64,000 nt of DNA from Bacteroidota bacterium. Its GTDB lineage: Bacteria > Bacteroidota > Bacteroidia > AKYH767-A > OLB10. Position 1 is the first letter of the stretch; every line of letters starts with the position of its first letter. Shown one piece after another: positions 11,856 through 64,000 of the stretch. The stretch covers positions 387,544-451,543 of the forward strand of contig JADJMG010000005.1 in assembly GCA_016709725.1 (NCBI GenBank), in the 5' to 3' direction. The notes below the pieces were generated by a model, which searched no databases, had not been told where the DNA came from, and saw only the letters and a program-made list of their open reading frames with translations. Made by a program: the position numbers and the translations under genes.

Positions 11856-13152
11856 AATTGCCATTCATTGGTTTCGCCGCGATCTTCGGTTAGAAGATAA
11901 TGCTGCGTTTTATCACAGTTTGAAAAGCGGATACAATGTGCAATCTGTTTTTATTTTTGACAATGATATTTTGTACGCACTGGAGGATAAAAAAGACCGT
12001 CGACTCCAATTTATTCACGATCAAATTACCTATTTAAACCAGCAGCTTCAATTGCATGGCGGTAGTTTGGATGTGCGATATGGTACTCCGATAAAAATCT
12101 GGAAAGAATTACTAAAGGAATATAATACGGCCGCGGTATATACGAATCACGATTACGAACCGTACGCGAAAATTCGAGATAAAGAAATAGAAAATCTTTT
12201 AGTAAAAAATAATATTTCATTTCATACATTTAAAGACCAAGTGCTCTTTGAAAAAGATGAAATAATAAAGAAAGATGGGCAACCTTATACCATCTACACT
12301 CCATATAGTAAAAAATGGATGGAGAAGTTGAATGAAGAAGGTGTTCCCAATTACGACACTAAAAATCTTTTAAGTAAGCTGCATCAAAAAAAGTCTTCAG
12401 ATTTTCCCTCGTTGAAAAAGATGGGATTTGAAAAAAGCGAACCTGTTTTTCCTAGCAAGGAAATAAACAAATCGATTATTCAGCATTATCATGACACTCG
12501 TGATCTTCCAAGTGTATCAGGGACTTCCCGACTAAGCATTCACCTTCGATTTGGAACGGTAAGTATTCGAAAATTAATTAAAGAAGCACAAAAACTGAGT
12601 CCTACTTGGTTGAATGAACTCTGTTGGCGAGAATTTTATATGATGATCCTTTGGCATTTTCCACATGTTGTTCAAAGCGCCTTTAAACCTGCATACGATT
12701 TTATTGAATGGAGAAACAACGAAGATGAATTTGAGGCATGGTGTGAAGGCCGTACTGGCTATCCCATTGTTGATGCCGGTATGCGTGAACTCAATGAAAC
12801 TGGATTTATGCATAATCGAGTGCGGATGATTACGGCGAGTTTTCTAACTAAACATTTATTAATCGATTGGCGGTGGGGAGAAGCCTACTTCGCTTCCAAG
12901 TTGCTCGACTTCGACTTGAGTGCAAACAACGGCGGTTGGCAATGGGCCGCAGGTAGCGGATGTGATGCTGCTCCCTATTTTAGAATCTTTAATCCATACC
13001 TTCAAACACAACGATTTGATCCCGATTTTAAATACATTCGAAAATGGGTACCAGAGTTTGAAGACTTCGGCTATCCATCACCGATAGTTGAACATACCTT
13101 TGCAAGAGATCGTTGTTTACAAGTTTACAAGAAAGGACTCGCGAAAAAATAA
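11845..13152 (+). CDS. phr: deoxyribodipyrimidine photolyase / cryptochrome family protein
   Basis: An N-terminal photolyase domain (IHWFRRDLRLEDN) and a C-terminal FAD-binding block (GWQWAAGSG...DAAPYFRIFNP). Confidence 0.9.
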   Translation: MESKIAIHWFRRDLRLEDNAAFYHSLKSGYNVQSVFIFDNDILYALEDKKDRRLQFIHDQITYLNQQLQLHGGSLDVRYGTPIKIWKELLKEYNTAAVYTNHDYEPYAKIRDKEIENLLVKNNISFHTFKDQVLFEKDEIIKKDGQPYTIYTPYSKKWMEKLNEEGVPNYDTKNLLSKLHQKKSSDFPSLKKMGFEKSEPVFPSKEINKSIIQHYHDTRDLPSVSGTSRLSIHLRFGTVSIRKLIKEAQKLSPTWLNELCWREFYMMILWHFPHVVQSAFKPAYDFIEWRNNEDEFEAWCEGRTGYPIVDAGMRELNETGFMHNRVRMITASFLTKHLLIDWRWGEAYFASKLLDFDLSANNGGWQWAAGSGCDAAPYFRIFNPYLQTQRFDPDFKYIRKWVPEFEDFGYPSPIVEHTFARDRCLQVYKKGLAKK

Positions 13153-13159
13153 GTTTCTC

Positions 13160-13335
13160 GAAGAAAGGTTTCTCGCAAAGGCGCAAAGCCGCTAAGGCTG
13201 CGCTCGATAAATTTACATTCTAAGATGCTAAGGCTACGCTATGCTAAGCTTTCTTCCGAGAAACTTTGCAACCTTTGCGAGAAACTTTTCTGAGAGAATC
13301 CTTAGCGGCTTTGCGCCTTTGCGAGAAACTTTTGC
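13160..13335. repeat. structured intergenic element: a perfect 29-bp inverted repeat (13168-13196 / 13299-13327) of the ttctcgcaaaggcgcaaagccgctaagg family with partial internal copies
   Basis: tttctcgcaaaggcgcaaagccgctaagg ... ccttagcggctttgcgcctttgcgagaaa. It lies between the photolyase stop and the ribE start. Confidence 0.65.
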
Positions 13336-13464
13336 GAGTAAAAAAGCGACCTAATGGCAGCTAATGTTAGACTGTGCCTTTGCGAGAAAATTTCTGGGAA
13401 TTACTTTTGTTCGACCAAAGCAATAATTCTTTACTTTTATCTTCAAATTCAAAGTACACACATC

Positions 13465-20840: not shown

Positions 20841-20998
20841 GGATGTAAGGTGTTTATCGTTCCGGGCTTAAAGAAGTGGTGGTTTAGAAGCAAGAAATGG
20901 CTACCTATCACTACTGGTTATTTGAACCACAAAAGTTTAATAAACCACATCCCCGCCATTTCTTTTAAGCCCTTGTTATGCCTTCGTGCTACAGATGA

Positions 20999-22274
20999 CT
21001 AGAATTTCACAAGTTTGATGTTCGCAGTTCTATTTTCTTTTAAGTAGTTAAGCAAATAAAAGCCGGGGTGTAAACCATTTGTTTTAAATATTGTTTTACC
21101 ATCAATAGTTTTTTGCCGCATAATTTCTTTTCCCTTTATATCATATAATGTAGCATCTCCTTTTTCTTCAGTTCCATTTATGATAAATTCATTTGTAAAA
21201 GGATTAGGATAAATATGTAATGAAATAGCAGTGGAGATTTCATTTACGCTGGTATTAAAACAAAGTGGAGTAAACGGAAAACCTCTGCTTGTAATGGTAG
21301 AAGGAGAGGTTACTAAGCAACCCGAAGAAAAAGAAAAGCCTGTACTTCCGGTAATGGTTGCTGCGGTATCTGAAATAGTTGTCGGATTTCCCAGGTTGCA
21401 TCCGCTGTTTCCATTGGCATCTGTTTTTATTAAATAAATATCAAAATCACCTGCATTGAAGCTTGCAGAAAAACCATTAATAATATAACCACCATCAGTG
21501 GTCTGTTGAATGGAACGTGCAGCATCCCAATCACTGCCACCATATGTTTTTGACCACATAAGCGTTCCATTTGAATCGGTTTTGAGCAAATAAACATCAA
21601 TGCTGCCTGCACCAAAACTCTCCGTTTCGCCAGCAATAATAAATCCTCCGTCATTGGTCTGCTCAACATCATAGGCGCGGTCATCATTTGTACCTCCAAA
21701 TGTTTTTGACCACAAAACATTTCCAATCGAGTCTGTCCTTATTAAGTACACGTCATCACTACCCACACCAAAACTGGCAAATGTTTTACCCGCAATTATA
21801 TATCCACCATCGTTTGTCTGTTTAACAGAGCGACCTTGTTCAGAACTTATTCCTCCATATGTCCTTGTCCATAAAGAATCTCCAAAAGCATTTATCTTTA
21901 ATAAATAATAATCAGTTCCTGTTGTTGAACCTTGTGCATACCCATTTATAATATAACCTCCATCATTCGTTTGCTGAACAGAATATGCTCTGCAAGAACC
22001 AGTACCTCCATACACTCTTGTCCACAAAGTATCTCCATTCGAATCCGTTTCCAATTGCATTTGTCTTAATTAGAAAAGCATCACTATTGCCAGCTCCAAA
22101 ATTTGCTATGGAACCAGTAATAATATATCCACCGTCATTTGTCTGTTGCACACCAGTTCCGGCATCCGAACCTGTTCCACCAAAAGTTTTTTGAAAAGTG
22201 ATTTGCGCAGAGGAAATTTCAGCAAAGAGAATCATCTCTATCAACAGAACGATAATTAAGTACTTTGTTTTCAT
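20999..22274 (-). CDS. T9SS C-terminal-sorting-domain protein with about 50-aa TNDGGYII repeats, frameshifted (fragments 20999-22060 and 21963-22274)
   Basis: An N-terminal signal peptide, repeated ..YGG...D.A.S..QT.DGGYII.G motifs and a C-terminal T9SS CTD (IYPNPFTNEFIING...IKLVKF). Confidence 0.65.
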
Positions 22275-49854: not shown

Positions 49855-50641
49855 AACTACATTATAGAATTATTGGTGAAGGAAATCCAGTTCTCCTTCT
49901 ACATGGATTATTTGGCATGAGTGATAATTTACAAAGCTTTGGTCGTCAACTTGCTGAAAAAATCACAAGGTGATTATTGTAGACCTTAGAAACCATGGAC
50001 AATCGCCGCACGATTCAGCACATTCTTACCAACTCATGGCAGATGACATCGTGGAATTGCTTCAAGAATTAAACTTGAGTAAAGTAGACATTATTGGGCA
50101 TAGCATGGGCGGAAAAGTAGTATTGAAACTTTTAAACGCGCACGCTGATAAAATAAATAAAGCGGTAGTCATCGATATTGCGCCTTGGTTTTATCCTATA
50201 CATCATCGTGAAATTCTAGATGCATTACTGGCGATCGACTTAACTGTAATCCGAACGCGTAAAGATGCAGAAAGAGCATTAGCGGAAAACATCAAAGACC
50301 AAGGAACCCTCTTCTTCTTACTTAAAAATTTATATTGGGCAGAACCGGATCAATTAGCATGGCGATTTAATTTACAAGTGCTCAATCAACACATTGAATT
50401 GATAGGTGAAGAAACATGGCCTTCAAAAATTATTTCTACTCCCATCCTTTTTGTCAGAGGAGAAAAATCAAATTACATTGATCCGTATCGCATGAATGAA
50501 ATTTTAAAATGGTTTCCGAATGCTGAATTGGCCGAAATTAAAAATTCGGGACATTGGGTACATGCGGAGCAGCCTGCGGCATTGCTGGAGGTGGTGGATG
50601 GGTATATTTCCCAACGTGGGGTTCCACAACGTGGGGTTTAA
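49855..50641 (+). CDS. alpha/beta hydrolase, frameshifted at an A6 run near 49960
   Basis: N-terminal MKLHYRIIGEGNPVLLLHGLFG continues in another frame into VIIVDLRNHGQSPH...GHSMGG. Confidence 0.7.
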
Positions 50642-50658
50642 ACCCCACGTTGTGGGGG
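50611..50658. terminator. perfect 16-bp-arm palindrome between convergent genes (bidirectional terminator)
   Basis: ccacaacgtggggttt|aaaccccacgttgtgg. Confidence 0.6.
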
Positions 50659-50661
50659 AGA

Positions 50662-51243
50662 TTATTTCCATTCCAACGATTTCAATAAATGAATAACATC
50701 TTCTCGCAAATAATTTTGAACGGGCGCCAATGAATCGGCGTTGGGGAGGACGTTGAAATAGATCGCTCCTCTTAAAAAATGATTGACGCTATCAGTCACA
50801 AAAAATTGCGTTGCGGATGCGGCATCTCCACCGAGAGTATAGATCACGCCACTCACTCCTGGTTTAAACTGAATTACTTGTTCATCAATAGAACTTGCTC
50901 GTGCTGTGTGTTTATAAACCAAGGTGTGAGTATCGTCTAAATATTTATCTACATCACCATGCAAGGGTTTGTAGGTTAAATACAGTTGCGCATTTAAGGT
51001 AGGCATGATCAAATAATACCAGCAAGGTTCTGAAAGGGAATTCGTATCCTTAATGGGAATAGCATAATCCGGAATTTCAAATTTATACGGACATCCTTCT
51101 GGATTAAACATTTCATAGGTTCGCTCAGGCAAATCAATTCTAAAAAATCCGCGAGGCTTTGGATGCGTTTCTTCTTCGCCGCAGGAAGAAATTAACACAT
51201 TACTATGAATACGATTAGGATTTTTATTTTCATGGAGATGCAA
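50662..51243 (-). CDS. gldD: putative gliding motility lipoprotein GldD-like protein
   Basis: A 193-aa putative lipoprotein (SSCG lipobox). The mutY-ssb-gldD arrangement is conserved in Flavobacteriia. Assignment is by context and weak sequence memory. Confidence 0.45.
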   Translation of the reverse strand: MHLHENKNPNRIHSNVLISSCGEEETHPKPRGFFRIDLPERTYEMFNPEGCPYKFEIPDYAIPIKDTNSLSEPCWYYLIMPTLNAQLYLTYKPLHGDVDKYLDDTHTLVYKHTARASSIDEQVIQFKPGVSGVIYTLGGDAASATQFFVTDSVNHFLRGAIYFNVLPNADSLAPVQNYLREDVIHLLKSLEWK

Positions 51244-51254
51244 AGATGGGTGAT

Positions 51255-51415
51255 TTTAATTCAGAATTCAGAATTAAGAATTAAGAATTGTGTTCCGATA
51301 GCTATCGGGATGTGAATTGTGAATCGAGTCGCGAGGCTTCGCGATAAGTATTCTGATCGCGAAGCCTCGCGACTGAATTCTGAATTCTGCATTCTGAATT
51401 CTGAATTCTTAAAAC
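51255..51415. repeat. large composite palindromic intergenic element
   Basis: Outer gaattcagaatt/aattctgaattc arms around the inner cgcgaggcttcgcga...tcgcgaagcctcgcg arms, with ccgatagctatcgg in the centre-left. A similar cccgatatctatcggg occurs at 4247-4265. Confidence 0.55.
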
Positions 51416-51821
51416 GGAAGATCTCCGCCTAAATCCGTGTGTGGGGGGGTTGGATCGGTGGTTCCTAGGTCATTCGGACCGTTTTGTGCGTCGCGTTTAC
51501 TTAACATGGTCATATTTTCTGCTATGATTTCAGTCGCATAACGCTTGATACCATCTTTCTCCCAACTACGCGTTCGCAATTTACCTTCAATAAAACCATA
51601 TGCCCTTTTCGCAGGTGTAACTTCTCGGCTGCCTCTGCTAATCCGCGCCATAAAACGATATTATGCCATTCCGTTTGATCCTGACGATTCCCGTCTTTAT
51701 TCTTAAAGTACTCCGTGGTGGCTAATGGAAACTTTGCTACCATAATTCCGCCTTCCATGTGACGAAACTCGGGATCCTTACCTAAATTACCAATCAGAAA
51801 TACTTTGTTTACGCCAGACAT
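51409..51821 (-). CDS. ssb: single-stranded DNA-binding protein, frameshifted (fragments 51522-51821 and 51409-51651)
   Basis: An OB-fold N-terminus ([14 protein letters not shown]...WHNIVLWRG) and a C-terminal acidic tail ending DLPF in the second frame. Confidence 0.85.
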
Positions 51822-51916
51822 AAGAGATAGATTTTAGTTTAACGGGATAAGACTATTCGAGTAATGCTTAGGTCAAAGTTAGCCGTTATTCGATAATAGA
51901 AAAATTCTATTATCGA

Positions 51917-52100
51917 ATTGATGCACCCATGATGCAAAATCGCCCAAAAGGGGATTACGCATGGCAGACACCATTCGATGCAGAAATCGCCCAAAAAGGC
52001 GATTACGCATCAGGGAAGCACGCGATTCGATGCAGAAATCGCCCAAAGGTGATTACGCATCAGGGCAGACCGTTATTCGATGCAGAAATCGTAATAATCG
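51917..52100. repeat. tandem repeat, about 50-52 bp x about 3.5 (attcgatgcagaaatcgcccaaaaaggcgattacgcatcaggg...)
   Basis: Contiguous units without spacers, each holding an imperfect hairpin (aatcgcc/ggcgatt, gatgc/gcatc). Located upstream of ssb and downstream of mutY. Confidence 0.7.
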
Positions 52101-52117
52101 TTTAGCTAATCCTTCTT

Positions 52118-53158
52118 TCAAAGACCTTCTTGCTCAAAATAATTCACAATCAGTTGCGGAAAACCAAAGGTAGAAAGGTCGCTTAATTTCACTCTTAAAA
52201 ACCCATCTTTAGGAGGCAAACATTTTACAATATTTACTTTCCAAAAGCAGGCGTGTAACTCCTGATGCGATAAAATATGCTTTCTTTTGATGGGCTGTTT
52301 GCTCAATATAGGTTGATGGATTTTCGCCATTTCGGGAAGGGCCGGTGGAAAATCTGAGAGTTCAAAAAGCTCAACCATCGGAAGCTCAAACAAGCCTTGC
52401 CAGATATCTTTTTCATTTCTTCGCTTGATGTAGGTGGAGATTCCATCCGTAACCAGAAAATAATGAAAATACCTTTTTTTAGAGGGCAGCTTTTTCCCTT
52501 TCACTGGGTAATCCGACACCTTATTATATAGATAGGCATGGCAAGCCATAGCGAAAGGGCATTCATCACAATTGGGGGAGATGGGCTTACAAACCAAGGA
52601 TCCAATTTCCATCATGGCTTGATTATGTTCAGCGGCATGTTGCGCATCCATCAACTCCAGAGCAAGATCACTAAAGGCTTTTTTTCCTTGAGATGAATCG
52701 ATGGGGATATCCATTCCAAAGAAGCGAGATAAAAAACGGTAGACATTTCCATCCACCACAGGGTGTGGTAAATCGAAGGCAAAACTGGCTATGGCCGAAG
52801 CGGTATAATCACCAATTCCTTTAATCGATCGAAGCTTTTCGAAGTCGGGCGGAAACTCCCCATTAAAATCCCTTAGCACTTGTTTAGCAGCAGCATGAAG
52901 ATTTCGGGCTCTTGAATAATACCCCAATCCTTGCCAAAGCCTCAAAATTTGGTCTTCGGAGGCGGCTGCTAACTGCTTGATGGATGGGAAATTTTCAAGA
53001 AATTTATTGTAGTACGGAAGTCCTTGATTTACACGCGTTTGCTGAAGAATGATTTCCGAAAGCCATATTTTATAGGCTTCTTTTGTAGCTCTCCACGGCA
53101 ATTTTCGACCGTTTTTTCGGTACCATTGCCTCAAATTCTTAGAAAATTCCTGATCCAT
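52118..53158 (-). CDS. mutY: A/G-specific adenine DNA glycosylase
   Basis: HhH-GPD (LSEIILQQTRV), an FeS cluster loop CxxxxxxCxxC and a C-terminal NUDIX-like domain. Confidence 0.9.
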   Translation of the reverse strand: MDQEFSKNLRQWYRKNGRKLPWRATKEAYKIWLSEIILQQTRVNQGLPYYNKFLENFPSIKQLAAASEDQILRLWQGLGYYSRARNLHAAAKQVLRDFNGEFPPDFEKLRSIKGIGDYTASAIASFAFDLPHPVVDGNVYRFLSRFFGMDIPIDSSQGKKAFSDLALELMDAQHAAEHNQAMMEIGSLVCKPISPNCDECPFAMACHAYLYNKVSDYPVKGKKLPSKKRYFHYFLVTDGISTYIKRRNEKDIWQGLFELPMVELFELSDFPPALPEMAKIHQPILSKQPIKRKHILSHQELHACFWKVNIVKCLPPKDGFLRVKLSDLSTFGFPQLIVNYFEQEGL

Positions 53159-53258
53159 ATTAAATAATTAGGGCAAAAATAGGAAGTAATATTTTGTATT
53201 TCAGCAAGAAAGCATATCTTTGCAGCCCCTTAAAAGGAATTTATAATCAATAGTAAAG

Positions 53259-53564
53259 ATGACAAAAGCAGAATTAGTAAACGAGATCTCCACAAAGACT
53301 GGGATCGAAAAGGTAGCAGTTCAGCAAACCGTTGAATCCATGATGAAAGTGGTTCGCAACTCGCTGATCAATAACGAAAACGTTTATTTACGTGGATTCG
53401 GTAGTTTTATCGTGAAGAAGCGTGCAAAGAAAACGGGACGTATTATCACCAAAAACGCTACGATCATTATTCCGGAACATTATATCCCAGCTTTCAAGCC
53501 AGCGAAAACTTTCACTGAGCGTGTGAAATCTGCACATAAGAGTAAAGCCACAACCGCTGAATAA
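53259..53564 (+). CDS. hup: HU family DNA-binding protein
   Basis: MTKAELVNEIS...RGFGSF...PAF, the typical HU/IHF fold sequence. Confidence 0.9.
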   Translation: MTKAELVNEISTKTGIEKVAVQQTVESMMKVVRNSLINNENVYLRGFGSFIVKKRAKKTGRIITKNATIIIPEHYIPAFKPAKTFTERVKSAHKSKATTAE

Positions 53565-53570
53565 TCCTGA

Positions 53571-54406
53571 ATGAAAAGTGCACAACTGAGGATCATCCTC
53601 ATTGCCGGCACAATTCTACTTTCGGCAGCTCTTTATTTTGCGCCCTCTCAGTTAAACAAGAAAGGAGCAGAACCCAAGGCCGCAGCTGAAAATACAGAGG
53701 ACGAATTCAACCCGGAAGCCTTATTGCGATCGGCAAAAGCTTCTCTCGACACCAACGCTCTTCAACAGCTTGAGATCATTGAGAAAGCCTCCGCCCAAGC
53801 AAACAATCAAGATACTGCCTTACTAGACAGCATCGGCAAAATCTGGGATAAAAACGGAATACCGGCTGCTTCCGCCATTTGGTTTGAGCGAAAAGCACAA
53901 ATAGTAAAGAGTGAAACATCATACCTTGATGCAGCTTATCGCTATTTTGATTCTTTTCGAAATGGCCAATGACAGTATGATTCAGTCGTTATTAGTTGGT
54001 AAAGCCATCACCAACTATCAAAAGGTTTTAGAATTAAATCCGAACAACCTGAATGCAAAAACAGACCTTGGTGCCTGTTATGCCGATGGAACTTCGGAGC
54101 CTATGAAAGGGATTATGTTATTGCGTGATGTAGTAGCAGCCGATCCCAATCATGAAATGGCCCAATACAATTTGGGAATGCTATCGGTGAAATCAGGGCA
54201 ACTTGATAAAGCGATCGAACGATTCCAAAAAGTACCAGAAATAAATCCTCAAGAAGCGAAATGAACTTTACCTCGGTCAAGTTCATCTTCAAAAAGGAGA
54301 TACGGCAGCGGCCATACAGTCGTACGAAACGTTCATCAAGAATGCGAAGTATGATGTATCCGATGTCATTAAAATGGTTCAAGCACTCAAGAAGAAAACT
54401 TCTTGA
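53571..54406 (+). CDS. tetratricopeptide-repeat protein, interrupted by about 2 frameshifts (pieces 53571-53972, 53911-54264, 54262-54406)
   Basis: N-terminal TM anchor, then TPR-like segments continuing across three frames (..YNLGMLSVKSGQLDKAIERFQK.. / ELYLGQVHLQKGDTAAAIQSYE..). Confidence 0.6.
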
Positions 54407-54443
54407 AAAAGAAAATAGTTAAAAACATTTAAAAATTTAAGTT

Positions 54444-54536
54444 ATGCCATCAGGTAAAAAGCGCAAACGTCATAAAATGGCGACCCACAAACGTAAGAAG
54501 CGTCTAAGAAAAAATCGTCATAAGAAGAAGAAATAA
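54444..54536 (+). CDS. small highly basic 30-aa protein (MPSGKKRKRHKMATHKRKKRLRKNRHKKKK), possible ribosome-associated or nucleic-acid-binding micro-protein
   Basis: A clean ATG..TAA ORF in the rng upstream region. The composition (over 60% K/R/H) resembles small ribosomal proteins. It falls below the ORF-track length cut-off. Confidence 0.4.
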   Translation: MPSGKKRKRHKMATHKRKKRLRKNRHKKKK

Positions 54537-54620
54537 GCCATTTTAGGTTAAGAGTAGCCATTCTGCATAAAATTATACGGAATGGCTGCTCATATTTGCT
54601 ATTTTTTATACAGGTAGTCC

Positions 54621-56186
54621 GTGGACTATATTGATTTAAGGAATTTTGTAATCCTCCCATGCAAAATTATTAGGCTTCAAGATTTGAACAGCGAACTCAT
54701 TATTGATTCGTCGACTTCCGAGGTGCAAATTGCCCTTGTTGAAGACAAGCAGCTCGTAGAGTTAAATACAGAAAAAAAAGAAAAAGGATTTTCTGTTGGT
54801 GACGTCTACTTGGGCCGCGTGAAGAAACTTATGCCTTCACTCAACGCCGCTTTTGTAGATATCGGTTATGAAAAAGATGCTTTTCTCCATTACCTCGATT
54901 TAGGTACCCAGGTACAATCCCTCATCAAGTACATGAAGAATACACAAGCCGGCACACAAACCGATGGCTTGTTGAATAACTTCGAACTGGAAGCAGACAT
55001 CCACAAAGCCGGCAAAATCGGACAAGTGGTAAACACCAACCTAAACATCATGGTGCAGGTGGCCAAGGAACCCATCAGCAGCAAAGGTCCGCGCATCACC
55101 GCCGAACTTTCCTTTGCTGGGCGATTTGTAGTTTTGGTTCCCTTTTCAGATGTTGTTTCCGTATCTCAAAAAATTAAGAGCAGTGCCGAGCGACTTCGCC
55201 TAAAACGTTTAGCGACGAGTATCAAGCCCCGAAACTTCGGAATCATTGTTCGCACTGTTGCTGAAGGAAAAAAAGTTGCCGACCTCGACAGAGATGTGCA
55301 AGATTTAACTTCGAAGTGGACGGCTTTGCACGAACAATTAAAATCGGCCACACCACCTGCAAAACTCTTGGGTGAAATTGATCGCGCTTCCACCATCTTA
55401 AGAGATTTATTGAATGCAAACTTCAATGCCATTCATGTCAATGATGTTCGGGTTGCAGAAGAAATAAAAACGTATTTGAGAGGGATTTCTCCCGATCAAG
55501 TCGACATTGTAAAGTTGTACAAAGGCAAGTTACCCATTTTCGAAAACTTTGGTATCGACAAACAAATAAAATCTCTTTTTGGAAAAACAGTGAACATGGC
55601 TGGGGGTTCCTACCTCATCATTGAGCATACCGAAGCCATGCATGTGATTGATGTGAATAGTGGCGGCCGAAACAAAGGGGCATCCGACTCACAAGAAAAC
55701 AATGCGCTGCAAACAAACTTAATGGCGGCAAAAGAGATTGCCCGTCAATTTAGCATGCGCGATATGGGTGGAATCATCGTCATTGATTTCATCGACATGA
55801 AAAACACGGTGAATCGCAAAGCCTCCAACAAAATTTGGTCTTGTTCAAATCACACGGGAGCGTGTACGACCGGTTACCGATATCATTACCGTAGAGAAAT
55901 GTCCGGCCTGTGATGGAACGGGAGAAATTAAAGCCTCCTCCTTTTAATCGACGACATTGAAAATAATTTACGTTACCTCTGCGAAGAGCAAAACGAAAAA
56001 GGGTTAACCTTACAAACGCATCCTTTCGTAGCTGCCTTTTTAAATAAAGATTTTTGGAAATTCAAATCTTTCCAATGGAAATGGCGCAAGAAATATAAAA
56101 GCTGGGTAAAGATTGAACCCATCTCCTCCTTCCATTTAATGGAATTCCATTTTATGAATAAGCAAGGGGAAGTGATAAAGCTTTAA
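54621..56186 (+). CDS. rng: ribonuclease G (RNase E/G family), with 2 apparent frameshifts in the 3' quarter
   Basis: An S1 domain and the catalytic core (HVIDVNSG, DMGGIIVIDFIDM). The C-terminus ...VQITRERVRPVTDIITVEKCPACDGTGEIKASS / LIDDIENNLRYLCEE...FWKFKSFQWKWRKKYKSWVKIEPISSFHLMEFHFMNKQGEVIKL continues in other frames to the TAA at 56184-56186. Confidence 0.8.
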
Positions 56187-56380
56187 GTGCTTTTTTTCTT
56201 GGAAGCTTCCGCTTTCTACAATACCTATTTCTTGATCTTTAACTGCTATTCTTCGATGGATGGGGAGTTAGTACGTACTTGTACTTAGTGGGAACTTTTT
56301 GGTGGGGGTAGATGGGTGTTTGGTTGGTTTAAAAAGTATATTTGAGGAAAGCTAAGCATGAGTAAAGCCTCTGTCTAGGG
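56020..56380 (+). repeat. left copy of an about 330-360 bp direct repeat (covers the last about 45 codons of rng plus about 190 bp downstream); candidate att site
   Basis: About 85-90% identical to 59735-60100 (for example gattgaacccatctcctcc, ggtttaaaaagtatatttg). Confidence 0.7.
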
Positions 56381-56462
56381 ATGAGGCTTTACTTAATAAT
56401 CGCGAGGTAATAATATGTTACCTGCAATTTTTAGCGACAGTCCTAACTTGATACTTTAAGCA

Positions 56463-59400
56463 ATGAATAAAAACCGAATAGCAAATTTCTTAGGATTTCT
56501 GACAACTGCGACTATCACAGGAGTTGGACTTTCCATGACATCCAATCAGTTTGTTGGTGGAGCAATCATTGGGCTTGGTATTGAATTGGGTTCAGGTTTC
56601 ATTGAGTCAGTTTGCTCAAAACTCAAAAAGAATTGGACTAAAGAAAATTATGGACTTTTAAATCATGACATTCAAAAGTCATTACAACGAAGTATTGTGG
56701 CGGCTCTGAATGATATGCAGACAGAATGCCTTACAATGCCATTTGCACCTGACGAAAGAGAACCCATCAAAAACTTTTATGACAGTTTGATTAAGGAATC
56801 AAAAGAAGATTTCTTCCACAAGTATTTAGAAGATAAGAATGACAACATACTAAAAGATCTTATAAACAAAAACTCTTCAACCTTTGAGAAAGACATTACT
56901 GATGGAATCTACAACGAAGAATTACTTTCAACTTTCAGTTTGTCTTTTAAGCATTACTTCAAAGAAACTTTAGTAAAGAAATTACGGTTTTGGTTTACAG
57001 AAGATTTGAAGGGTGAAGGCGATGAAAATAAAAGAGCAAGAGTAGCGTATGAAAAAATTCTGTTGGAGAGCATTGAAAACACATTACAAGAGCAGTGCAA
57101 TAAAATAACATCTCTTCAAACCCAAGTGGGTTTGATTTTTGAAAATTCAATTAGAGCAATCAATGAAGGAAAACAATTCAAGAAACACTTCAAAAACTCT
57201 TTCCACAATTTCCTTCTTTTTCTTTAGTAACAATTCCGCAAGAGGAAAGTAACAACGCAGATAAATTCTATGACGGTTTCCCCCCGCAACTTGAAGATTT
57301 AAAAGCAAATTTTGATTTTCCAAGAAATCTTTATTTAAAAGATAGTGGAGTTAAGTCAAGAATAAACGAACTAACATCATCTGATGCACACTTTGTAAAA
57401 TTCATTCTGATAAAAGGAGTTGGGGGTAGTGGAAAATCTACATTGCTCAAAAGAATTTCGTTTGACCAAACAATAATTGGCAAGAATGTTTTTACCTAAA
57501 CAAAGATTGGTTTGAGGACAAACAAATCAACAAACTTCAAACTCAAATAAAACGACTTGCCGAATCTTATCCCGATTGTGTAATAGTACTTGATGACATT
57601 GCTGATTGTATTTTAAGAGAAGAAATAAATTTTCCCGAACTCATTAATTCACTAAGTTCAAAAAGGATTTTGTTTGTTCTTGCTGACCAACCTGACAGAT
57701 GGAACAGAGTAACTCCCAAGGTGAGGGAGCTAAATACAGCAGGACAACTTCTCTCATTCGACTTACACCAACTTGACGAAATTGAATGCGAAGATTTAGC
57801 GGATAAAATGATTGAACTTGAATCTGAGGAAAAACTTTCAATCAGACACCTTGAATTGACAAAGGAAGAACGAGTAAAACTTTGTAAGGAAAATTCTAAA
57901 AGACACTTTGTAGTCGCAATGCTGCAAATCCGATATGGTAAAAGGTTCAGCGATATTATAATTGAAGAATTTGAAAAAATACCATCAGAGAAAGGTAAAG
58001 AAGCATATCTGATGGTTTGCTTTTGCAATCATTTAGGACTTTCAATTCCTGAATCCATTGTTATCAGTGCTTTGCACTTAACATCTTCTCTTAGCATAAA
58101 TGAATTTCATTCCTACACGGAAGGAATCGTTATTTTCAGTAAGTATGGTTTATCTTCAAGACACCCAATAATAGCCCGTGAAATTATCCGCAACTTTGTC
58201 AAAACAAAATTGAATTTCATTTCAACCTAAAACAAATATTCTCCTCATTAGGTGAAAACAAAATAGAAGTTTCAGATTTCTTAGACAGCTTCTTATCAAA
58301 GGAAAATATTCACAAAACCTTAGCAAAGATATTAGAAAAGGACATTGTTTTAATTGAGGATATTATTCAGATAATAGAAAGCAAGAAACATCTTTTAGAA
58401 AAAGATTTGCTTATCAAGTTGATGAGTTTTTATGGAATGACTGAACGATTGATTGGAAATGACGAGAAGGCGTTAGAAATTTTCAAACAGATTATTAGTG
58501 AGATCGACAAGGGGTATTCTTTTTGCGTATCGGCAAATCGGCTGGATAGAACACGACAATCAGAACTATGATGAAGCTGCAAATTATGCGATTCAATCCT
58601 ATCAGTATTCAAATGAAAATCCCGAACACATTATTCAGATTGCAAAGCTTTTGGCTCTTAATACAGTTAAGAATTTTAGAGAAGCAAAAAAATATTATGT
58701 AGCAGCACTTGAAAAAAGTAACAAGGACAAGTATTACCAAGAAGAACTTGAAAAATATACTGATGCAGAAAATGCACTGAACTACTTTTCGCAGTTATAC
58801 GATGATGACTTCATTCCAGACGATATTATCAAAGCGCTAAGACCAGGACTTAACTTTTTCAGAATCTATTTTCACACTAATTCAAAAGAGTTTAAAAATA
58901 AACTCATCAATGTTCTTCATGGAATGGAAGGCGATACCAAGGGAAGCATTGAAGACCTTGACGCAGTTGTTGAAGGTTTCAACATCAAGAAAGACAAGTT
59001 AGTAAGTAGTAAATACTACGGCAATCTTGCACGAATTATGTATTTGGAGTGGTATAAAAATGAAAAAAATAATTGACCCTACTAAGATACTTGAGGTTTT
59101 CCAAACCAGTTTAACTTTAAATTCAAATGACCCATTTACTCATTGTTGGTTAGGAACATTCTATAAAGAAGTTTTGAAAGATTTTGTAACAGCAGAAGCC
59201 GAATACAAAAAAGCAATTGCCCTTTCAAAGAATTCTAAATACGAACATGACAAAGACCACCCACTCTTTTCAAATAATCTTGCTCTCTTGATTATGGATG
59301 AAGTGGTTGCTGACAAACTTCCAAAAGAAAAATTATTTGAGGCAAAATCTCTTTTAGATTTTTCTGTAAAAGTTAATACCGAAAAACAATCAAGTTTTTA

Positions 59401-59464
59401 TTGGGCAGAACATAATCTCTCAAAGTGTTTGGACTTAATTGACAGATATAAATTGACTTCGTAA
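56463..59464 (+). CDS. NLR-like STAND/NACHT-type NTPase (N-terminal glycine-zipper/helical domain, P-loop NTPase, helical region, C-terminal TPR repeats), split over 6 frame segments
   Basis: Segments 56463-57227, 57167-57499 (Walker A FILIKGVGGSGKSTLLKRI), 57457-58230 (Walker B CVIVLDDIADC), 58182-58568, 58498-59076 and 59027-59464 (TPR-like). The junctions overlap at A/T homopolymers. Confidence 0.6.
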
Positions 59465-59734
59465 CCTTGAATAAAATGACGAACACAACTCCGAACTTTC
59501 ATCTTTGTGGCGAGAGTAAAACTGCAGGTAACATGGGGTTTTCGATAGTGGGTGTTTCGTGCTCCGCAGACACATTTGTACAAGGTGGAATCCTGCCTGC
59601 CGGCATGCAGGTTCAGTTCCCCGCATGAGGATTAGAGTTAAGACTCATCATCATCGAACCTATTACAGAACCAATTGTTTTACTGTTACAGACTTACAAA
59701 ATGGACAGAGCAAATCGAAAAAAGCCCAACTCTC

Positions 59735-60100
59735 CAAACCAAGCCCTTCGTTGCTTCCATTTTGAAAACTGATTTTGGAAATTCAAATCTTTTCAATTGA
59801 AATGGTTCAAGAAATATAAAAGCTGCGTGAAGATTGAACCCATCTCCTCCTACCATTTAATGGAATTTCATTTTTTGAATAAGCAGGGGGAAGAGATAAA
59901 GCTTTAAGCGCTTTTTTTTCTTGGAAGTTTACGACTTCTACAATACCTATTTCTTATTTCTTAATTGCTATTTGTCGCCTGTGGCTATTTAGTACGTATT
60001 TGTACTTAGTGAAAACTTTTTGGTGGGGCTAAATGGGTGTTGGGTTGGTTTAAAAAGTATATTTGGGAAAGGGAAATGTGAGTTAAGCCTACAGACTAGG
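59735..60100 (+). repeat. right (diverged) copy of the direct repeat; still encodes an RNase G C-terminus-like peptide FWKFKSFQLKWFKKYKSCVKIEPISSYHLMEFHFLNKQGEEIKL
   Basis: Alignable to 56020-56380 at both nucleotide and protein level. Confidence 0.7.
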
Positions 60101-60181
60101 TAAGGGCAGGATAAACGAAATAGAAGTTCGGCATTAATACTTTAGATAATATTATAAAAAACCACAACCTGAAAGAAACGA

Positions 60182-62288
60182 ATGCATATTTCAAAGTTTA
60201 CAGCATTTAATTTTAGAAGTCTTAGACAAGTTGTTTCTTTACGATTTGAAGGTGGGAGAAATGTCATTGTTGGTAAAAACAATTCGGGTAAGTCGAATAT
60301 TATTAAAGGGATTGAAATTCTAATTGGCGAAAAATTTCCAACCTATATCAATTTCACAGACAACGATTTTTATACTTACGAGGCAGTTGATGAAGACACA
60401 GGAGAATTTCGAGAAGTTGTTTCAGACAATCTTTATTTAGAGGTTGAATTAGCAGGAAGAGATTTTGATGAAACTTTACTAAATACAATTAAAAAACAAA
60501 CCGCATTTTCAAGAGTAGAAAATTCCGCTTCTCTTTATCATAAACTAGAAAATGGAGAATTCAAAGCAAATTATGACTTCTTTCAAAGTCTTGACGACAT
60601 TGAGAGTAGGCCTGAAGTAATCGTTTGCGGCGAAAATCTAGGTGGAAGACAAAAGAAAACGGAATGGAAAAAACCTGAAAACCTCATTGCTTTTTTTAAA
60701 ATCAGCAAGGACAATCAAACTCTTTTTTTTGTAAATCCCGAACGGATGATGAAAAGTCAGGTTTCGGTTTGATTTGCGTTGATTCAAATGGATTAATTTG
60801 GGTATCACATTTCTTATCAAAAAAATTAAGAGATTCTTTAATTACAACAACTGTAATAAGTGCACTTCGTAGTCAAAAAGAAGATTTGAGATTGGTTCAT
60901 TATACATGGTTTGGAAAACTAATAAAAGGCTTATGGGAGGACAATAAAGCAAGCACTCATCCAACCGAACAAAAATCTTATGAGGAACTTATCAAATCAA
61001 AATCAATAGATATAAAGCGTTTCGTTGATGAGGTTTTTCGTAAGGATACTACTGAAATAAGAAAACTTTTAGAAGGTGCAATAGCTCATAAAGAAATTTC
61101 ATTCCGTTTTATGAATGATACAACAAATGAGTTATACAAAAATATTCAACTTTTTGTTAATGATGGAATAGATAGGCCCCTTTACGAAAAAGGAACAGGG
61201 ATTCAAAGTGCAATAATAATTTCTTTGTTTTCTCTGTATTGTAACGAGTATCATAATAATAGTTCTCTTTTAATTGCAGAAGAACCAGAGTTGTTCTTAC
61301 ATCCACAAGCAAGAAGAGTTATATCGGCCGAATTGGATAAGTTTTTAAATGGTTCTCAAGAACAACAACGCCAACTTATTATTAGTACACACTCTGTGGA
61401 GTATCTGAAAAATGTTGACCCCTTTAATATAATTCGTGTATATAAGGATAGTATCAATAATTGTTCGATAGTTAAACAACTTGACCAAGCAACATCTCAA
61501 CAAATCACAACAGAACTTAAGAGATTTCTTTGGTCGAACAATACGGAACTCTTTTTGCTGACAAGGTTGTCTTAGTTGAAGGAGGTGAAGTTTATTTAAT
61601 TCCATCAATAGTTGACAAATTAAAAGGTTTTAAACAATTATTAGACTATCAAAACATTACGGTTTCAAGAGTAAATGGTAAAGGAAGCTTTTTGACATAT
61701 GTTAAAATGTTACAATGCTTTGATATTGAATTTATTATACTAGGAGATTTAGATTGTTTTAAGGACGAAGTACCTAAACTAATTAAGCATTTAAAAATTA
61801 ATGCAATAATAGAAAATGCAGGGAAAATTAAAACTGCGATTTCTTCATTGCCAATTAGTTATGAAGCTATTGATGAACGAGTAAAGGGAGTTGATAGAAA
61901 CTATGATTCACAAACTCTACAAAGCCTTTTTGAAAAATTTGCAAGTGGAGAAATCGAAAAAGACAATGAAGATCTTCTTGCAATTATTCAATTTATGCAA
62001 TTACGTTACACTAAAGGAGATAAAGAAGAAGTGATTATTGAATCGGTTGGAGAAGAAGAATTTAACACTGTACTTTCAACTCTCAGAGACAATAACATTT
62101 TCATTTGGTCAAAGGGTGATCTTGAATGTTACTATTCAGACAAATCAAAAGCATTAAACGGAAGTAAAGACATCAAAGCACTTGAATTATCATATCTATT
62201 ACAGGTTGAAACAGAAAATATAGAAGATTTAATTCTACATCTTGACGAAGTAAAACAACTTATCGAAACGATATTGAAAAAAGAATAA
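60182..62288 (+). CDS. OLD-family ATP-dependent endonuclease (ABC-type ATPase + TOPRIM), split into 3 frames (60182-60772, 60769-61575, 61530-62288)
   Basis: N-terminal FNFRSL...VIVGKNNSGKSNIIKGIE (Walker A). Middle LLIAEEPELFLHPQARR (Walker B/D-loop) and ISTHS (H-loop). C-terminal KVVLVEGGEVYL and ILGDLD (TOPRIM E and DxD). Confidence 0.65.
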
Positions 62289-62455
62289 CATCAGCTAACA
62301 GCCGTTTAGCAAAAAAGGGGGGTTAGTGCTTGAATGTGTGCTACTAGACATTTAGTGCTTCGAAATCCGCTTCTTCGCCAAGCACCAAACCGTTATTTGT
62401 TATTATAGCAACCGCTGAACATATCTAACTTAGAAACAAAATTAAATTAAAATGT

Positions 62456-64000
62456 ATGTCTGTAGATACAAAAGAAATTGAGAAATTATTAGTAAAATCA
62501 TACAATGAAGGTTTCTCAAATTTAAATTTTAGCTATTTTGATTTAAGAGAAATTCCATTCTTTATTTTAGAACGCCCTTTATTATTAAATCAAAAGCGTA
62601 AAGATGGTTCAGATTCTGAAGAATATGAAAATTTGAATTTGGAGAAAGTACGAGAATTAAATTTATCTAATAACTATCTTACTCAAATAGACACAAAAAT
62701 ATCATGTTTTAAAGGACTTCAAACCTTAGATATTTCAAATAATAAACTAGAACAGCTTCCACGACAAATATGTGAACTTGGAAACTTAAAAGAAGTAATT
62801 GTCAATAACAATCCTCTAATTAATTTACCTCAAAAGTTTGCATCATTTCAAAAGCTTGAAATTCTTGATCTATCCAATACAGCGATTTATGAAATACCAA
62901 ACTATATTCAATATCTGTATAATTTAAAAGAACTAAATTTAGCTAATTGTAAATTAAGTGTACTACCTAAAAGAATTATACTACCTTCCAAATCTTAAGA
63001 TTCTTAACATTACAGGTAATCCACTCATTGACCCTCCTATTGAAATAGCCTCAAAGGGTATAGATTACGTAAAATATTATTATGACGAAATTGACTCTTC
63101 AATAGAAAAAGATTTCTTGTATGAAGTAAAACTTCTACTAATCGGTGAAGAAAGAGCAGGAAAATCAACCATTGCCGAATCACTATCAAATCCAAATTAT
63201 GAGTTTGATTTATACAAAAACAGCACACAAGGTATAGACATCAAAAAATGGACAATAAATCAAGATAAATTAAATATTGAAAAGGATTTTCAAGTCAATA
63301 TTTGGGACTTTGGTGGTCAGGAAATTTATCATGCAACCCATCAGTTTTTTTTTCACAAAACGTTCGTTGTATTTTCTAGTAACAGAGGCTCGAAAAGATT
63401 TAAGGCACGATGACTTATTTTATTGGTTGAATCTAATTGAGATTTTAGGAAACAATAGTCCCGTAACGATTTTAATAAATAAAAGCGACCAACCATATAC
63501 GTTCTTTGCAACAGATGCCTACCGAGAAAAATTTCCTAATATTTTAGGAACAAAAAACATTAGTTGCTTGCCCGAATACAAAAATACAATTGAAGAATTA
63601 AGAGAAGTAGTCTATTCAATATTGTCTAATAAAGATTTAATGCCTGATATTGGAGTTGAACTACCTAAGGTTTGGATAGATATTCGGAACGAATTAAATA
63701 GTATTAAAGATGCTGGAGTTTTTTATATTAAAACTAGTAGATACTTTTCAATTTGTAAAAAATTTGGAATGAATGAAGAAAGATCTCTTTTTTTAAGTGA
63801 CTACTTTCATGACCTTGGAGTATTTCTCCATTTCCAAAATGATTTAGTTTTAAAAGATACTGTTTTTTAAATTTTGAGTGGGTTACGAATGCGGTTTACT
63901 GCATACTCGATAATCCTAGAATAGTTTCTAATCATGGCTTCTTTAATGATACTGATTTAGAGATTATTTGGAAGAAAAACTATTATTTTGATAAAAGGTT
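62456..64000 (+). CDS. ROCO-type protein (LRR - Roc small GTPase - COR), fragmented by several frameshifts and running off the window
   Basis: LRRs (LxxLxLSNNxLxxLP, 62456-62998). Roc G1 KLLLIGEERAGKST, G3 IWDFGGQE (62958-63413) and G4 NKSD (63277-63870). COR-like sequence continues in another frame to 64000. Confidence 0.6.

What the first reader, a model, noticed from the sequence alone, without database searches (positions are those of the whole stretch)
56020..60100. Direct repeats duplicating the 3' end of RNase G bracket the NLR-like gene: signature of site-specific insertion at rng
Bases 56020-56380 and 59735-60100 are about 85-90% identical. Both copies encode an RNase G C-terminal peptide, FWKFKSFQWKWRKKYKSWVKIEPISSFHLMEFHFMNKQGEVIKL versus FWKFKSFQLKWFKKYKSCVKIEPISSYHLMEFHFLNKQGEEIKL, followed by about 190 bp of similar non-coding sequence. 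Duplication of a gene 3' end that preserves the coding potential is the classic footprint of integrase-mediated insertion. The incoming element carries a surrogate 3' end (attP) and displaces the native one. The 85-90% rather than 100% identity suggests the two copies come from different lineages, for example successive insertions into the same hotspot. Each repeat copy lies immediately upstream of a defense-type gene (the NLR-like gene at 56463, the OLD nuclease at 60182), so the repeat may also supply promoters.
Basis: partly seen in the sequence, partly recalled or inferred. Interest (0 to 1): 0.75.

Follow-up and report, generated by a model that had tools for sequence, protein, structure and literature searches.

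The report
Repeated rng gene-ends flank defence cassettes
Two copies of the tail of a housekeeping RNase gene, each with a likely promoter, bracket an anti-phage gene, and their patchwork sequence shows the gene was spliced in by a single crossover that left the RNase tail replaced rather than lost; related bacteria show the same repeat again inside stacks of integron-like defence cassettes.

Summary
The repeat is real: 55982-56355 and 59704-60076, about 83% identical overall and 92% in the best block, with only two copies in the window. Each copy is the last ~200 nt of rng plus ~160 nt of spacer ending in a Bacteroidetes -7 box (TAtaTTTG). Copy B is a chimera: its left 123 nt are decayed, and its right 79 coding nt match related genomes exactly. 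Copy A shows the reverse pattern. Both switch at the same place (56105-56108 and 59826-59829). That fits one reciprocal crossover that inserted a 3,721-bp unit (repeat plus NLR-like gene) and gave rng a substitute tail. "Integrase-mediated" does not: I found no recombinase in the unit or in about 48 kb of related island sequence.

A related contig has two more copies of the repeat deep inside a defence island. The cargo genes are integron-type cassettes with fixed GTTA...TAAC inverted ends, attC-like hairpins between them, and the same NLR and OLD cassettes in other arrays. A sister species has neither the spacer nor attC-like elements in the 10 kb after rng. The frameshifts in the window are homopolymer sequencing errors. 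I class this as a new variant of known kinds. The recombination enzyme is unresolved.

The parts
54684..56186 (+). rng (RNase G/E family). As assembled it is disrupted by a 59-nt deletion at 55821 and a 1-nt gap at 55934/55935. The tail from about 56108 onward is the surrogate end.
   Evidence: 98% amino-acid identity to RNase G of L001/L002. Deletion and gap shown.
55982..56416 (+). Repeat copy A (R_A). It comprises the last 205 nt of rng, the spacer 56187-56344, and the leader 56345-56416, which contains the hairpin GTAAAGCCTC...GAGGCTTTAC.
   Evidence: Hairpin z = -4.5.
56105..56108 (.). Switch point in copy A. To the left there are 0/123 mismatches to related genomes. To the right there are 5/79 copy-A-specific changes.
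   Evidence: Fisher p = 0.008.
56337..56344 (+). TATATTTG, a match to the Bacteroidetes -7 promoter consensus TAnnTTTG. It is conserved in all six spacer-bearing copies and lies 126 nt before the NLR ATG.
56417..59532 (+). NLR-like cassette. The ORF is 56463-59464 (1000 aa; nSTAND5 P-loop NTPase plus TPR; intact in short-read assemblies). Ends are GTTACCTGCAATTTT ... AAAACTGCAGGTAAC.
   Evidence: Pfam result. P0001 is 99% identical and intact. The same boundaries occur in L112/113 and L120/121.
59533..59703 (+). Spacer X between the NLR cassette and copy B. It resembles the attC-like family by eye and contains the palindrome CCTGCCTGCCGGCATGCAGG. It is not significant with the covariance model.
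   Evidence: Alignment. Model score only E = 9.5. No significant homology to rng.
59704..60140 (+). Repeat copy B (R_B). It comprises a pseudo-rng tail (59704-59907), the spacer 59908-60065 and the leader 60066-60140.
   Evidence: Also present in L109 3418-3811.
59826..59829 (.). Switch point in copy B. To the left there are 29/123 mismatches to related genomes (decayed arm). To the right there are 0/79.
   Evidence: Fisher p = 1.5e-7.
60058..60065 (+). TATATTTG -7 box of copy B, 124 nt before the OLD ATG.
60141..62300 (+). OLD-family nuclease cassette. The ORF is 60182-62288 (701 aa; AAA_15 plus OLD-like TOPRIM; intact in L109). Its left end is degenerate (TTTAGATAATATTAT) and its right end is ...CATCAGCTAACA.
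   Evidence: Pfam result. Module boundaries against L122/L123/L119. In L122 the ends are GTTATCTGAT...ATCAGATAAC.
62291..62400 (+). attC-like element after the OLD gene (TAAC ... hairpin ... CGTTAT).
   Evidence: Covariance models built without it: R1 E = 0.012, R2 E = 3.6e-4, and 1.2e-5 with filters off.
62456..64000 (+). Start of the LRR-Roc-COR cassette. It is 890 aa in L109 and runs off the window.

Best explanation
The two repeats are copies of a unit, R, of about 435 bp. R consists of the last ~200 bp of rng, a ~160-bp spacer ending in a Bacteroidetes -7 promoter box, and a ~75-bp leader.

A 3,721-bp circular DNA carrying one R copy and the NLR-like cassette recombined once with the resident rng end. 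The crossover lay inside a block that is nearly invariant in all seven copies compared (the 21 nt just left of the switch are fully invariant). rng therefore kept its own sequence up to 56105 and received the incoming tail, spacer and promoter (copy A, right part), followed by the NLR cassette. The earlier tail, now fused to the decayed left arm of the incoming R, was pushed downstream in front of the OLD cassette (copy B).

Repetition of this process in the genus has stacked co-oriented defence cassettes behind rng. Each cassette sits behind its own promoter-bearing R or behind an attC-like spacer.

Shown: the repeat, the chimeric make-up of copy B, the coincident switch in copy A, further chimeric copies in a related island, the fixed cassette boundaries, and the absence of a recombinase in the unit.

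Inferred: the circular intermediate, the enzyme, and promoter activity. The most likely enzyme is host homologous recombination confined to the only long identical stretch. A site-specific recombinase encoded elsewhere is possible.
For: Copy B differs from L001/L002/L003 at 29 of 123 positions left of 59826 and at 0 of 79 to the right (p = 1.5e-7). Copy A shows 0/123 and then 5/79 (p = 0.008). Where A and B differ, A is the native-like copy at 25 of 26 informative left sites and B at 5 of 5 right coding sites (p = 3.5e-5). The two switches lie within 3 nt of each other.

The left arm carries changes at residues that are invariant in all the RNase G sequences compared, including W to L, W to C and R to F, so it was not part of a working gene.

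Two further pseudo-copies in L116 (11500-11866 and 13023-13383) have the same decayed-left, native-like-right build. Each precedes a gene.

The 21 nt GCGCAAGAAATATAAAAGCTG next to the switch are invariant in all seven copies, although the pseudo-arms are otherwise about 21% diverged.

L002 and L003 share the spacer but carry different cargo. L001 lacks the spacer and shows no attC-like element.

Independent assemblies confirm the NLR - copy B - OLD order.
Against: No allele of the same species without the insert was found, and no circular form has been seen. Copy-A-specific substitutions also occur elsewhere in rng, so the evidence that the right part of copy A is foreign is only moderate. The switch points of the two L116 copies are bracketed only to 36-57 nt. 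The -7 box has no canonical -33 partner at 19-21 nt (direct reading), and no expression data exist. rng as assembled is broken by a 59-nt deletion, which weakens the argument that selection kept rng intact, unless that deletion is an assembly error.
Confidence: 0.55

Rival explanations
1. Integrase-mediated site-specific insertion. A tyrosine or serine recombinase recognises a core inside the rng tail, and the repeats are attL and attR. The NLR unit is then a non-autonomous element mobilised in trans.
For: The switch points of A and B coincide within 3 nt. All three pseudo-copies are compatible with one crossover point. The 21-nt block next to that point is invariant even in decayed arms. With about 13 changes expected, the chance of none is about 4e-7.
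Against: No recombinase domain or box-II motif was found in the 3.7-kb unit, the 64-kb window, L109 (13 kb), L116 (14.6 kb), or the 10 kb after rng in L002 and L003. Homology spans about 375-435 nt at 83% identity, not a short identical core. A and B differ at 56105 and again at 56108, leaving only 2 identical nt between the two differences that bracket the switch.
Confidence: 0.2
2. Block import. Copy A is wholly native. Copy B, already a chimera formed in another genome, arrived together with OLD and the cassettes behind it. It was joined behind the NLR cassette by integron-type or other recombination, with no crossover in the resident rng.
For: Chimeric pseudo-copies of the same build sit deep inside arrays (L116). 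Copy B starts about 25 nt after the end of the attC-like spacer X. Lineage-specific changes of the window's rng also occur outside the tail.
Against: Copy A has no private change for 123 nt and then five in 79 nt, starting 3 nt from the switch in copy B. My rough estimate of the joint probability is about 0.01, based. X is not a significant attC match.
Confidence: 0.15
3. Tandem duplication in place, followed by divergence.
For: The arrangement is head-to-tail, and the leader and spacer architecture is the same in both copies.
Against: Neutral decay of a pseudogene cannot give 29/123 changes in one half and 0/79 in the other. The sequences between and after the copies are unrelated genes.
Confidence: 0.03
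4. Assembly artefact of a long-read metagenome bin.
For: The window carries many homopolymer indels and a suspicious 59-nt deletion.
Against: Three independent short-read assemblies reproduce part of copy A, then NLR, X, copy B and OLD at 99.7% identity.
Confidence: 0.01

Closest known systems
Prophages and islands that insert into the 3' end of a protein gene and carry a substitute end (phage 21 and e14 in icd of E. coli; ICESt1/3 in fda; SGI1 in trmE; SCCmec in rlmH).
   Same: The target gene tail is duplicated as direct repeats. The incoming copy keeps the reading frame. The displaced tail remains at the far end. The substitute end is imperfectly identical, as at icd.
   Different: Those elements encode their own integrase next to the att site and have a short defined core. 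Here the unit carries no recombinase. The homology also runs about 230 nt past the stop codon and includes a promoter.
Tandem accretion of elements at one site, as in tycheposons next to tRNA genes in Prochlorococcus (bioRxiv 10.1101/2020.12.28.424599). CIME/ICE accretion in Streptococcus thermophilus is a further example from my own knowledge.
   Same: Newly arriving elements push older ones further into the island. Partial copies of the target gene are scattered through the island. The cargo is adaptive or defensive.
   Different: The target here is a protein gene, not a tRNA. No tyrosine recombinase or replication module is seen. The units are as small as 1.5-3.7 kb, with one gene each.
Integron cassette arrays and CALINs (clusters of attC sites lacking an integrase), including sedentary chromosomal integrons that store defence cassettes (PMC9024848; bioRxiv 10.1101/2024.07.02.601686, abstract seen).
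   Same: The array is co-oriented and mostly one gene per cassette. Each cassette starts with GTTA... and its ORF is followed by the complementary ...TAAC. Hairpin elements of about 110-136 nt lie between cassettes. The same cassette occurs in different arrays. The cargo is defence genes.
   Different: No intI or classical attI was found. The core is GTTAnnn/nnnTAAC with 13-15-nt inverted ends rather than strict GTTRRRY/RYYYAAC. The array is anchored on the rng tail. Promoter-bearing pseudo-rng units are interspersed, which integrons do not have. RefSeq surveys report integrons as rare in Bacteroidetes.
Partial duplication of the 3'-conserved segment in complex class 1 integrons, attributed to homologous recombination of ISCR1-derived circles. 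From my own knowledge.
   Same: A circle that shares one homologous segment with the target inserts by a single crossover. This leaves the segment duplicated on both sides of the cargo.
   Different: No rolling-circle transposase is present here. The shared segment is the tail of a housekeeping gene that has to stay functional.

Membership tests
Integrase-borne island or prophage at a gene 3' end | Direct repeats that duplicate the target gene end at both junctions | tested here: met
Integrase-borne island or prophage at a gene 3' end | Element-encoded tyrosine or serine recombinase beside an att site | tested here: not met
   Only one ORF lies between the repeats (nSTAND5-TPR). No recombinase Pfam hit or box-II motif was found in the window, L109, L116, L002 or L003.
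Integrase-borne island or prophage at a gene 3' end | Short identical core where strand exchange occurs | tested here: inconclusive
   Identity runs of 18 and 22 nt flank the switch, but A and B differ at 56105 and 56108. A 21-nt block is invariant in seven copies.
Integrase-borne island or prophage at a gene 3' end | Existence of an empty site | tested here: inconclusive
   The sister species L001 has rng followed directly by unrelated genes, with no spacer and no attC-like hit. No same-species empty allele was found.
Integron / CALIN | attC-type hairpin sites (R''-L''...L'-R') between ORFs | tested here: met
   The L120/121 array has seven copies in L120 alone, with conserved pairing. Models built from them hit L122, L116, L002, L109 and window 62291-62400, with E from 3e-17 to 4e-4. 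The spacer after the NLR gene is not a significant hit.
Integron / CALIN | The cassette starts with the core site and its ORF is followed by the complementary inverse core | tested here: met
   Seen for NLR, OLD (in L122), the 269-aa, 323-aa and 364aa-DUF4325-205aa cassettes, and the SIMPL and 157-aa cassettes. The core is GTTAnnn/nnnTAAC rather than strict GTTRRRY/RYYYAAC.
Integron / CALIN | intI integrase with attI and the Pc promoter at the head of the array | tested here: not met
   Upstream of the array lie rng, a TPR gene, HU and mutY, which are syntenic core genes. No recombinase motif was found in the 64 kb. At most the array is a CALIN, and intI could lie elsewhere in the genome.
Integron / CALIN | The same cassette found in different arrays or contexts | tested here: met
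   The NLR cassette is 90% identical in L112/113 and 82% in L120/121, with identical ends. The OLD cassette is found in L122/123 and L119.
Campbell-type insertion by homologous recombination | Reciprocal hybrid copies of one shared segment flanking the insert | tested here: met
Campbell-type insertion by homologous recombination | Dependence on RecA and on a stretch of perfect identity | not testable with these tools
   The only indirect hint is that the switch lies in the longest block shared by all copies.
STAND / NLR-like NTPase (cargo) | P-loop STAND NTPase domain with a repeat sensor | tested here: met
   PF25199 nSTAND_NTPase5 scores 48.4 bits against a cut-off of 34, with weak TPR hits.
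OLD-family nuclease (cargo) | ABC-type ATPase plus TOPRIM domain | tested here: met
   AAA_15 E = 4e-35 and OLD-like_TOPRIM E = 3e-14.

The most novel reading that the evidence does not exclude
R is a portable landing pad plus promoter. It is a pseudo-copy of a housekeeping gene tail that travels with integron-type cassettes. It lets them enter and leave the chromosome at the rng end through a conserved block, using host recombination or a recombinase encoded elsewhere. On this reading, a lineage of Bacteroidota runs an integron-like cassette system in which a gene end stands in for attI/intI, and each arrival brings its own promoter and repairs the gene it lands in.
Probability: 0.2. Interest if true: 0.85.

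Novelty: new variant of a known kind. Interest (0 to 1): 0.62.

Why it matters
If this is right, it shows how a defence island can grow at the end of an essential-type gene without any island-borne integrase. Every incoming unit carries a spare gene tail, so the host gene survives. It also carries a promoter, so the cargo is expressed. The displaced tails remain as a dated stack of past arrivals.

It also places integron-type cassettes, including a 3.1-kb NLR-like gene and a 2.2-kb OLD nuclease, in uncultured Bacteroidota. RefSeq surveys report integrons as rare in that phylum.

There is a practical use as well. The repeat and the GTTA...TAAC ends are simple markers for finding new defence cassettes in metagenomes. 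They also explain why short-read assemblies break at this locus.

Tried and rejected
- Exact look-ups of the window's HU and MutY proteins to find the source contig or an empty allele found nothing on record.
- Scans of viral contigs for two repeat motifs gave no match.
- The single metagenome scan with an 18-mer from the conserved block gave 28 contigs. All were chance matches except one distant rng (L102).
- I searched OLD homologues for a pre-insertion allele. The closest full-length hit was 88% identical, and the 100%-identical fragment (L115) covers only the downstream side.
- I considered that spacer X (59533-59703) is further decayed rng, which a weak protein-level match suggested. I rejected this because nucleotide alignment scores lie within the shuffle range.
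- I considered that R is an integron cassette cut out at the GTTACCT site inside rng (55968). This is not supported, because 24-40 nt that are unrelated or heavily decayed separate the preceding attC-like end from the start of rng homology in all three pseudo-copies.
- I considered that the GTTA...TAAC ends are transposon terminal repeats. There are no target-site duplications and no conserved flanks in three contexts, and the attC-like arrays explain the ends better.
- I tested whether L002 and L003 show the same jump in divergence at the switch point. The result was not clear, because comparable peaks occur elsewhere in rng.
- tRNA, Rfam and sigma-70 promoter/terminator scans gave nothing relevant.
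- Contig L124, reached through a homologue of the 254-aa protein, has no repeat copy.

Full report
**Observation**

The window holds a direct repeat with 3,721/3,722-nt spacing. Pairwise and multiple alignments place the clear homology at 55982-56355 (copy A) and 59704-60076 (copy B). A weaker leader with a similar layout runs to 56416 and 60140.

Identity is 82.7% over the unit. By segment:
- 77% in the left 123 nt
- 92% in the last 79 coding nt
- 84% in the about 158-nt spacer after the stop codon
- 62% in the leader

A 23-mer from the repeat occurs exactly twice in 64 kb, with none expected.

Three independent short-read assemblies (L109 from GCA_020051655.1, and Logan contigs L110 and L111) are 99.7% identical to window 56236/56292 onward. 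They reproduce the distal part of copy A, the NLR-like gene, copy B and the OLD gene. All three contigs end inside copy A, as expected at a repeat.

**Quality of the window**

The NLR-like, OLD and LRR-Roc-COR genes look shattered in the window. Against L109 the window shows 6 mismatches and 14 indels in 7.7 kb. Every indel lies in a homopolymer run. In L109 the three genes are intact at 1000, 701 and 890 aa.

The frameshifts are therefore sequencing errors. This includes the 1-nt gap in copy B at 59772. The closest related contigs (L002-L004) carry long-read assembler 'tig' names.

rng itself has a 59-nt deletion at 55821 relative to all relatives. It also has a 1-nt gap at 55934/55935 that is shared with L003. 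I could not check these against another assembly.

**What surrounds the repeat in relatives**

A scan of one genome per species found three close relatives, L001-L003 (97-98% RNase G amino-acid identity, 88-91% nucleotide identity). It also found more distant ones, L004-L006, at about 74% nucleotide identity.
- Synteny upstream of rng is conserved.
- Synteny ends at the rng stop codon in L001.
- In L002 and L003 it ends about 170 nt later, after the shared spacer.
- Each relative has only one copy of the rng tail within 10 kb.

What follows the spacer differs in every genome:
- Window: nSTAND5-TPR NTPase, then OLD nuclease, then LRR-Roc-COR.
- L002: SIR2-like, DNA methylase, GmrSD, AAA_15/21.
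- L003: AAA_15/21, PRTase-CE, NADAR, Mrr-like.
- L001: an AlkB-like oxygenase and no spacer.

L004-L006 share a different, conserved set of downstream genes. The rng end is therefore a reused hotspot in one genus. L001 looks like an unoccupied site.

**The repeat copies are chimeras**

I compared A and B with L001-L004 column by column.
- From 55982 to 56105, copy A agrees with the relatives at 25 of 26 informative differences and copy B is the odd one out.
- From 56108 to 56173, copy B agrees at 5 of 5 and copy A is the odd one out.
- Fisher p = 3.5e-5 for this switch.

Counted against L001-L003:
- Copy B has 29 mismatches in the left 123 nt and none in the right 79 (p = 1.5e-7).
- Copy A has none and then five (p = 0.008).

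The left arm of copy B carries replacements at residues invariant in all the RNase G sequences compared, including W to L, W to C and R to F. It has therefore not been part of a working gene for a long time. Its right part equals the tail of L001 and L003 (97.5%).

A uniformly decaying duplicate cannot look like this. A single reciprocal crossover between an incoming R copy and the resident tail explains both copies, and it explains why the two switches coincide within 3 nt. The inserted segment is 3,721 bp.

One caveat applies. Substitutions private to the window's rng also occur further upstream. The claim that the right part of copy A is foreign is therefore only moderately supported.

**The unit recurs**

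I followed a 254-aa protein from the continuation of the island (L109). This led to L116, another contig of the same metagenome assembly, from a related organism (92% nucleotide identity over the shared gene).

L116 contains two further copies of R, at 11500-11866 and 13023-13383. They lie more than 11 kb into a defence island (DUF2779, WYL, Multi_ubiq/ThiF/BubE, AAA_15). Each is followed by a small gene.

Both copies have the same build, a decayed left arm and a native-like right part. Their last left-arm mismatches fall at alignment columns 236 and 235, against 258 for copy B. All three pseudo-copies start rng homology within a few nt of the same position, near GAGCAAAACGA (window 55986).

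Other measurements on the pseudo-copies:
- The pseudo-arms are about 79% identical to native sequence and 72-74% identical to one another.
- The 21 nt next to the switch (GCGCAAGAAATATAAAAGCTG) are invariant in all seven copies.
- The right part of the second L116 copy carries L002-type variants. Its closest native match is L002 at 92.6%, whereas copy B's right part is 97.5% identical to L003 and L001. This suggests the units have moved between species of the genus.

**The cargo genes are integron-type cassettes**

Homologues of the NLR-like gene occur in two other contexts: 90% identical in L112/113/114 and 82% in L120/121. In both, homology to the window begins and ends at exactly the same bases, 56417 and 59532. 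The ends are the inverted repeats GTTACCTGCAATTTT and AAAACTGCAGGTAAC.

The OLD gene behaves the same way (window about 60141/60149 to 62300). In L122 it is bounded by GTTATCTGAT...ATCAGATAAC.

Other genes in L109, L116 and L120 each have their own pair of GTTA...TAAC ends.

In L120/121 the cassettes are separated by a hairpin element of about 136 nt. It begins TAAC-AAACGC and ends CC-GTTA, its pairing is conserved, and there are seven copies in L120 alone. This is the layout of attC sites.

Covariance models built from these elements find significant matches between genes in:
- L122 (E = 3e-9)
- L116 (2e-7; 3e-17 once included in the second model)
- L002, right after its first cargo gene
- L109, after the LRR-Roc-COR and 323-aa genes
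- the window, after OLD (62291-62400; E = 3.6e-4, and 1.2e-5 with filters off)

The spacer after the NLR gene (59533-59703) resembles the family by eye but is not a significant hit. L001 has no hit. No integron integrase was seen, so the array is at most a cluster of attC sites without an integrase.

**Promoter**

Sequence conservation in all six spacer-bearing copies ends at GTATATTTG. TAnnTTTG is the Bacteroidetes -7 consensus (from my own knowledge).

In this window the motif is enriched in non-coding DNA: 32 of 75 occurrences lie in 16% of the sequence. It lies 23-126 nt upstream of 14 of 53 genes. It sits 126 and 124 nt before the NLR and OLD start codons.

I did not see a canonical -33 element at the usual spacing. 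There are no expression data.

**Mechanism**

The insert carries only the NLR-like gene. I found no recombinase domain or tyrosine-recombinase motif in the window, or in about 48 kb of island sequence from four genomes.

The simplest reading is a circular molecule, R plus cassette, that recombined once with the resident tail. A crossover to the left of the conserved block would give rng the decayed arm. Recombination is also unlikely there, at 79% identity. Homologous recombination combined with selection would therefore by itself place crossovers where they are seen.

A site-specific recombinase encoded elsewhere remains possible. The invariant 21-nt block inside otherwise decayed arms favours it.

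A third reading is that copy B arrived already formed together with OLD. The data disfavour this but do not exclude it.

**Comparison with known systems**

The finding works like islands and prophages that insert into a gene tail and bring a substitute end (from my own knowledge). It also works like the stacking of elements at one site described for tycheposons.

The cargo and the spacers between cassettes match integron cassette arrays, which are known to store defence genes (abstract seen). RefSeq surveys report integrons as rare in Bacteroidetes.

What I have not seen described is the combination found here:
- an array anchored on the tail of a housekeeping gene;
- promoter-bearing pseudo-copies of that tail interspersed among the cassettes;
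- no recombinase on the unit.

**Verdict**

It is not supported on the integrase. I class the finding as a new variant of known kinds, with the recombination enzyme unresolved.

Noticed in passing
window 55821 and 55934/55935: rng lacks 59 nt that are present in all relatives, and also 1 nt (the latter gap is shared with L003). Together they remove 60 nt. The 113 nt between them are out of frame and contain a stop at 55911-55913, and the tail returns to frame. This is either a real pseudogene or an assembly fault.
   Followed up: partly
window 50600-64000: There are many apparent frameshifts (ssb 51409-51821, TPR gene 53571-54264, and the NLR, OLD and LRR-Roc-COR genes). For 56292-64000, all 14 indels against L109 lie in homopolymer runs, and the genes are intact in short-read assemblies.
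   Followed up: yes
window 20850-20983 (- strand): A strong match (E = 9e-9) to the attC-like model lies far from the island, just after the stop of the gene at 20999-22060. It reads CATAACA-AGGGCTTAAAAGAA...TTCTTTAAGCCC-GGAACGATAAAC. I found no partner core site upstream of the gene.
   Followed up: partly
window 62352-62409; L109 6061-6118 and 8930-8987: A second direct repeat (58 nt, 83% identical) flanks the LRR-Roc-COR gene. It is the conserved core of the attC-like elements after the OLD and LRR-Roc-COR genes.
   Followed up: yes
window 59593-59612: A GC-rich perfect-type palindrome, CCTGCCTGCCGGCATGCAGG, lies inside the spacer after the NLR cassette. It is absent from the other attC-like elements.
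   Followed up: no
window 56359-56392: A hairpin (GTAAAGCCTC...GAGGCTTTAC) lies between the -7 box and the cassette start. The other R copies appear, by eye, to have a hairpin of different sequence at the same place. I did not test covariation.
   Followed up: partly
window 56401-56423: Just before the NLR cassette, the sequence AGGTAAT-AATAT-GTTACCT forms a small palindrome. Its left arm resembles the cassette's own 3' end (AGGTAAC).
   Followed up: no
L120 1-518 and 5048-5306: A 259-nt unit made of an attC-like element plus a short insert is tandemly duplicated at 100% identity. It recurs at 81% identity just before the NLR cassette.
   Followed up: no
L109 10109-12175: A three-gene cassette (364 aa, DUF4325, 205 aa) is bounded by GTTACCTAC...GTAGGTAAC. 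The first 7 nt of its core, GTTACCT, are the same as in the NLR cassette and as in a site inside rng (window 55968-55974).
   Followed up: partly
L116 5256-7104: A ubiquitin-like conjugation set (Multi_ubiq, ThiF/E1-like, BubE) and a WYL regulator are among the cassettes of the related island.
   Followed up: no
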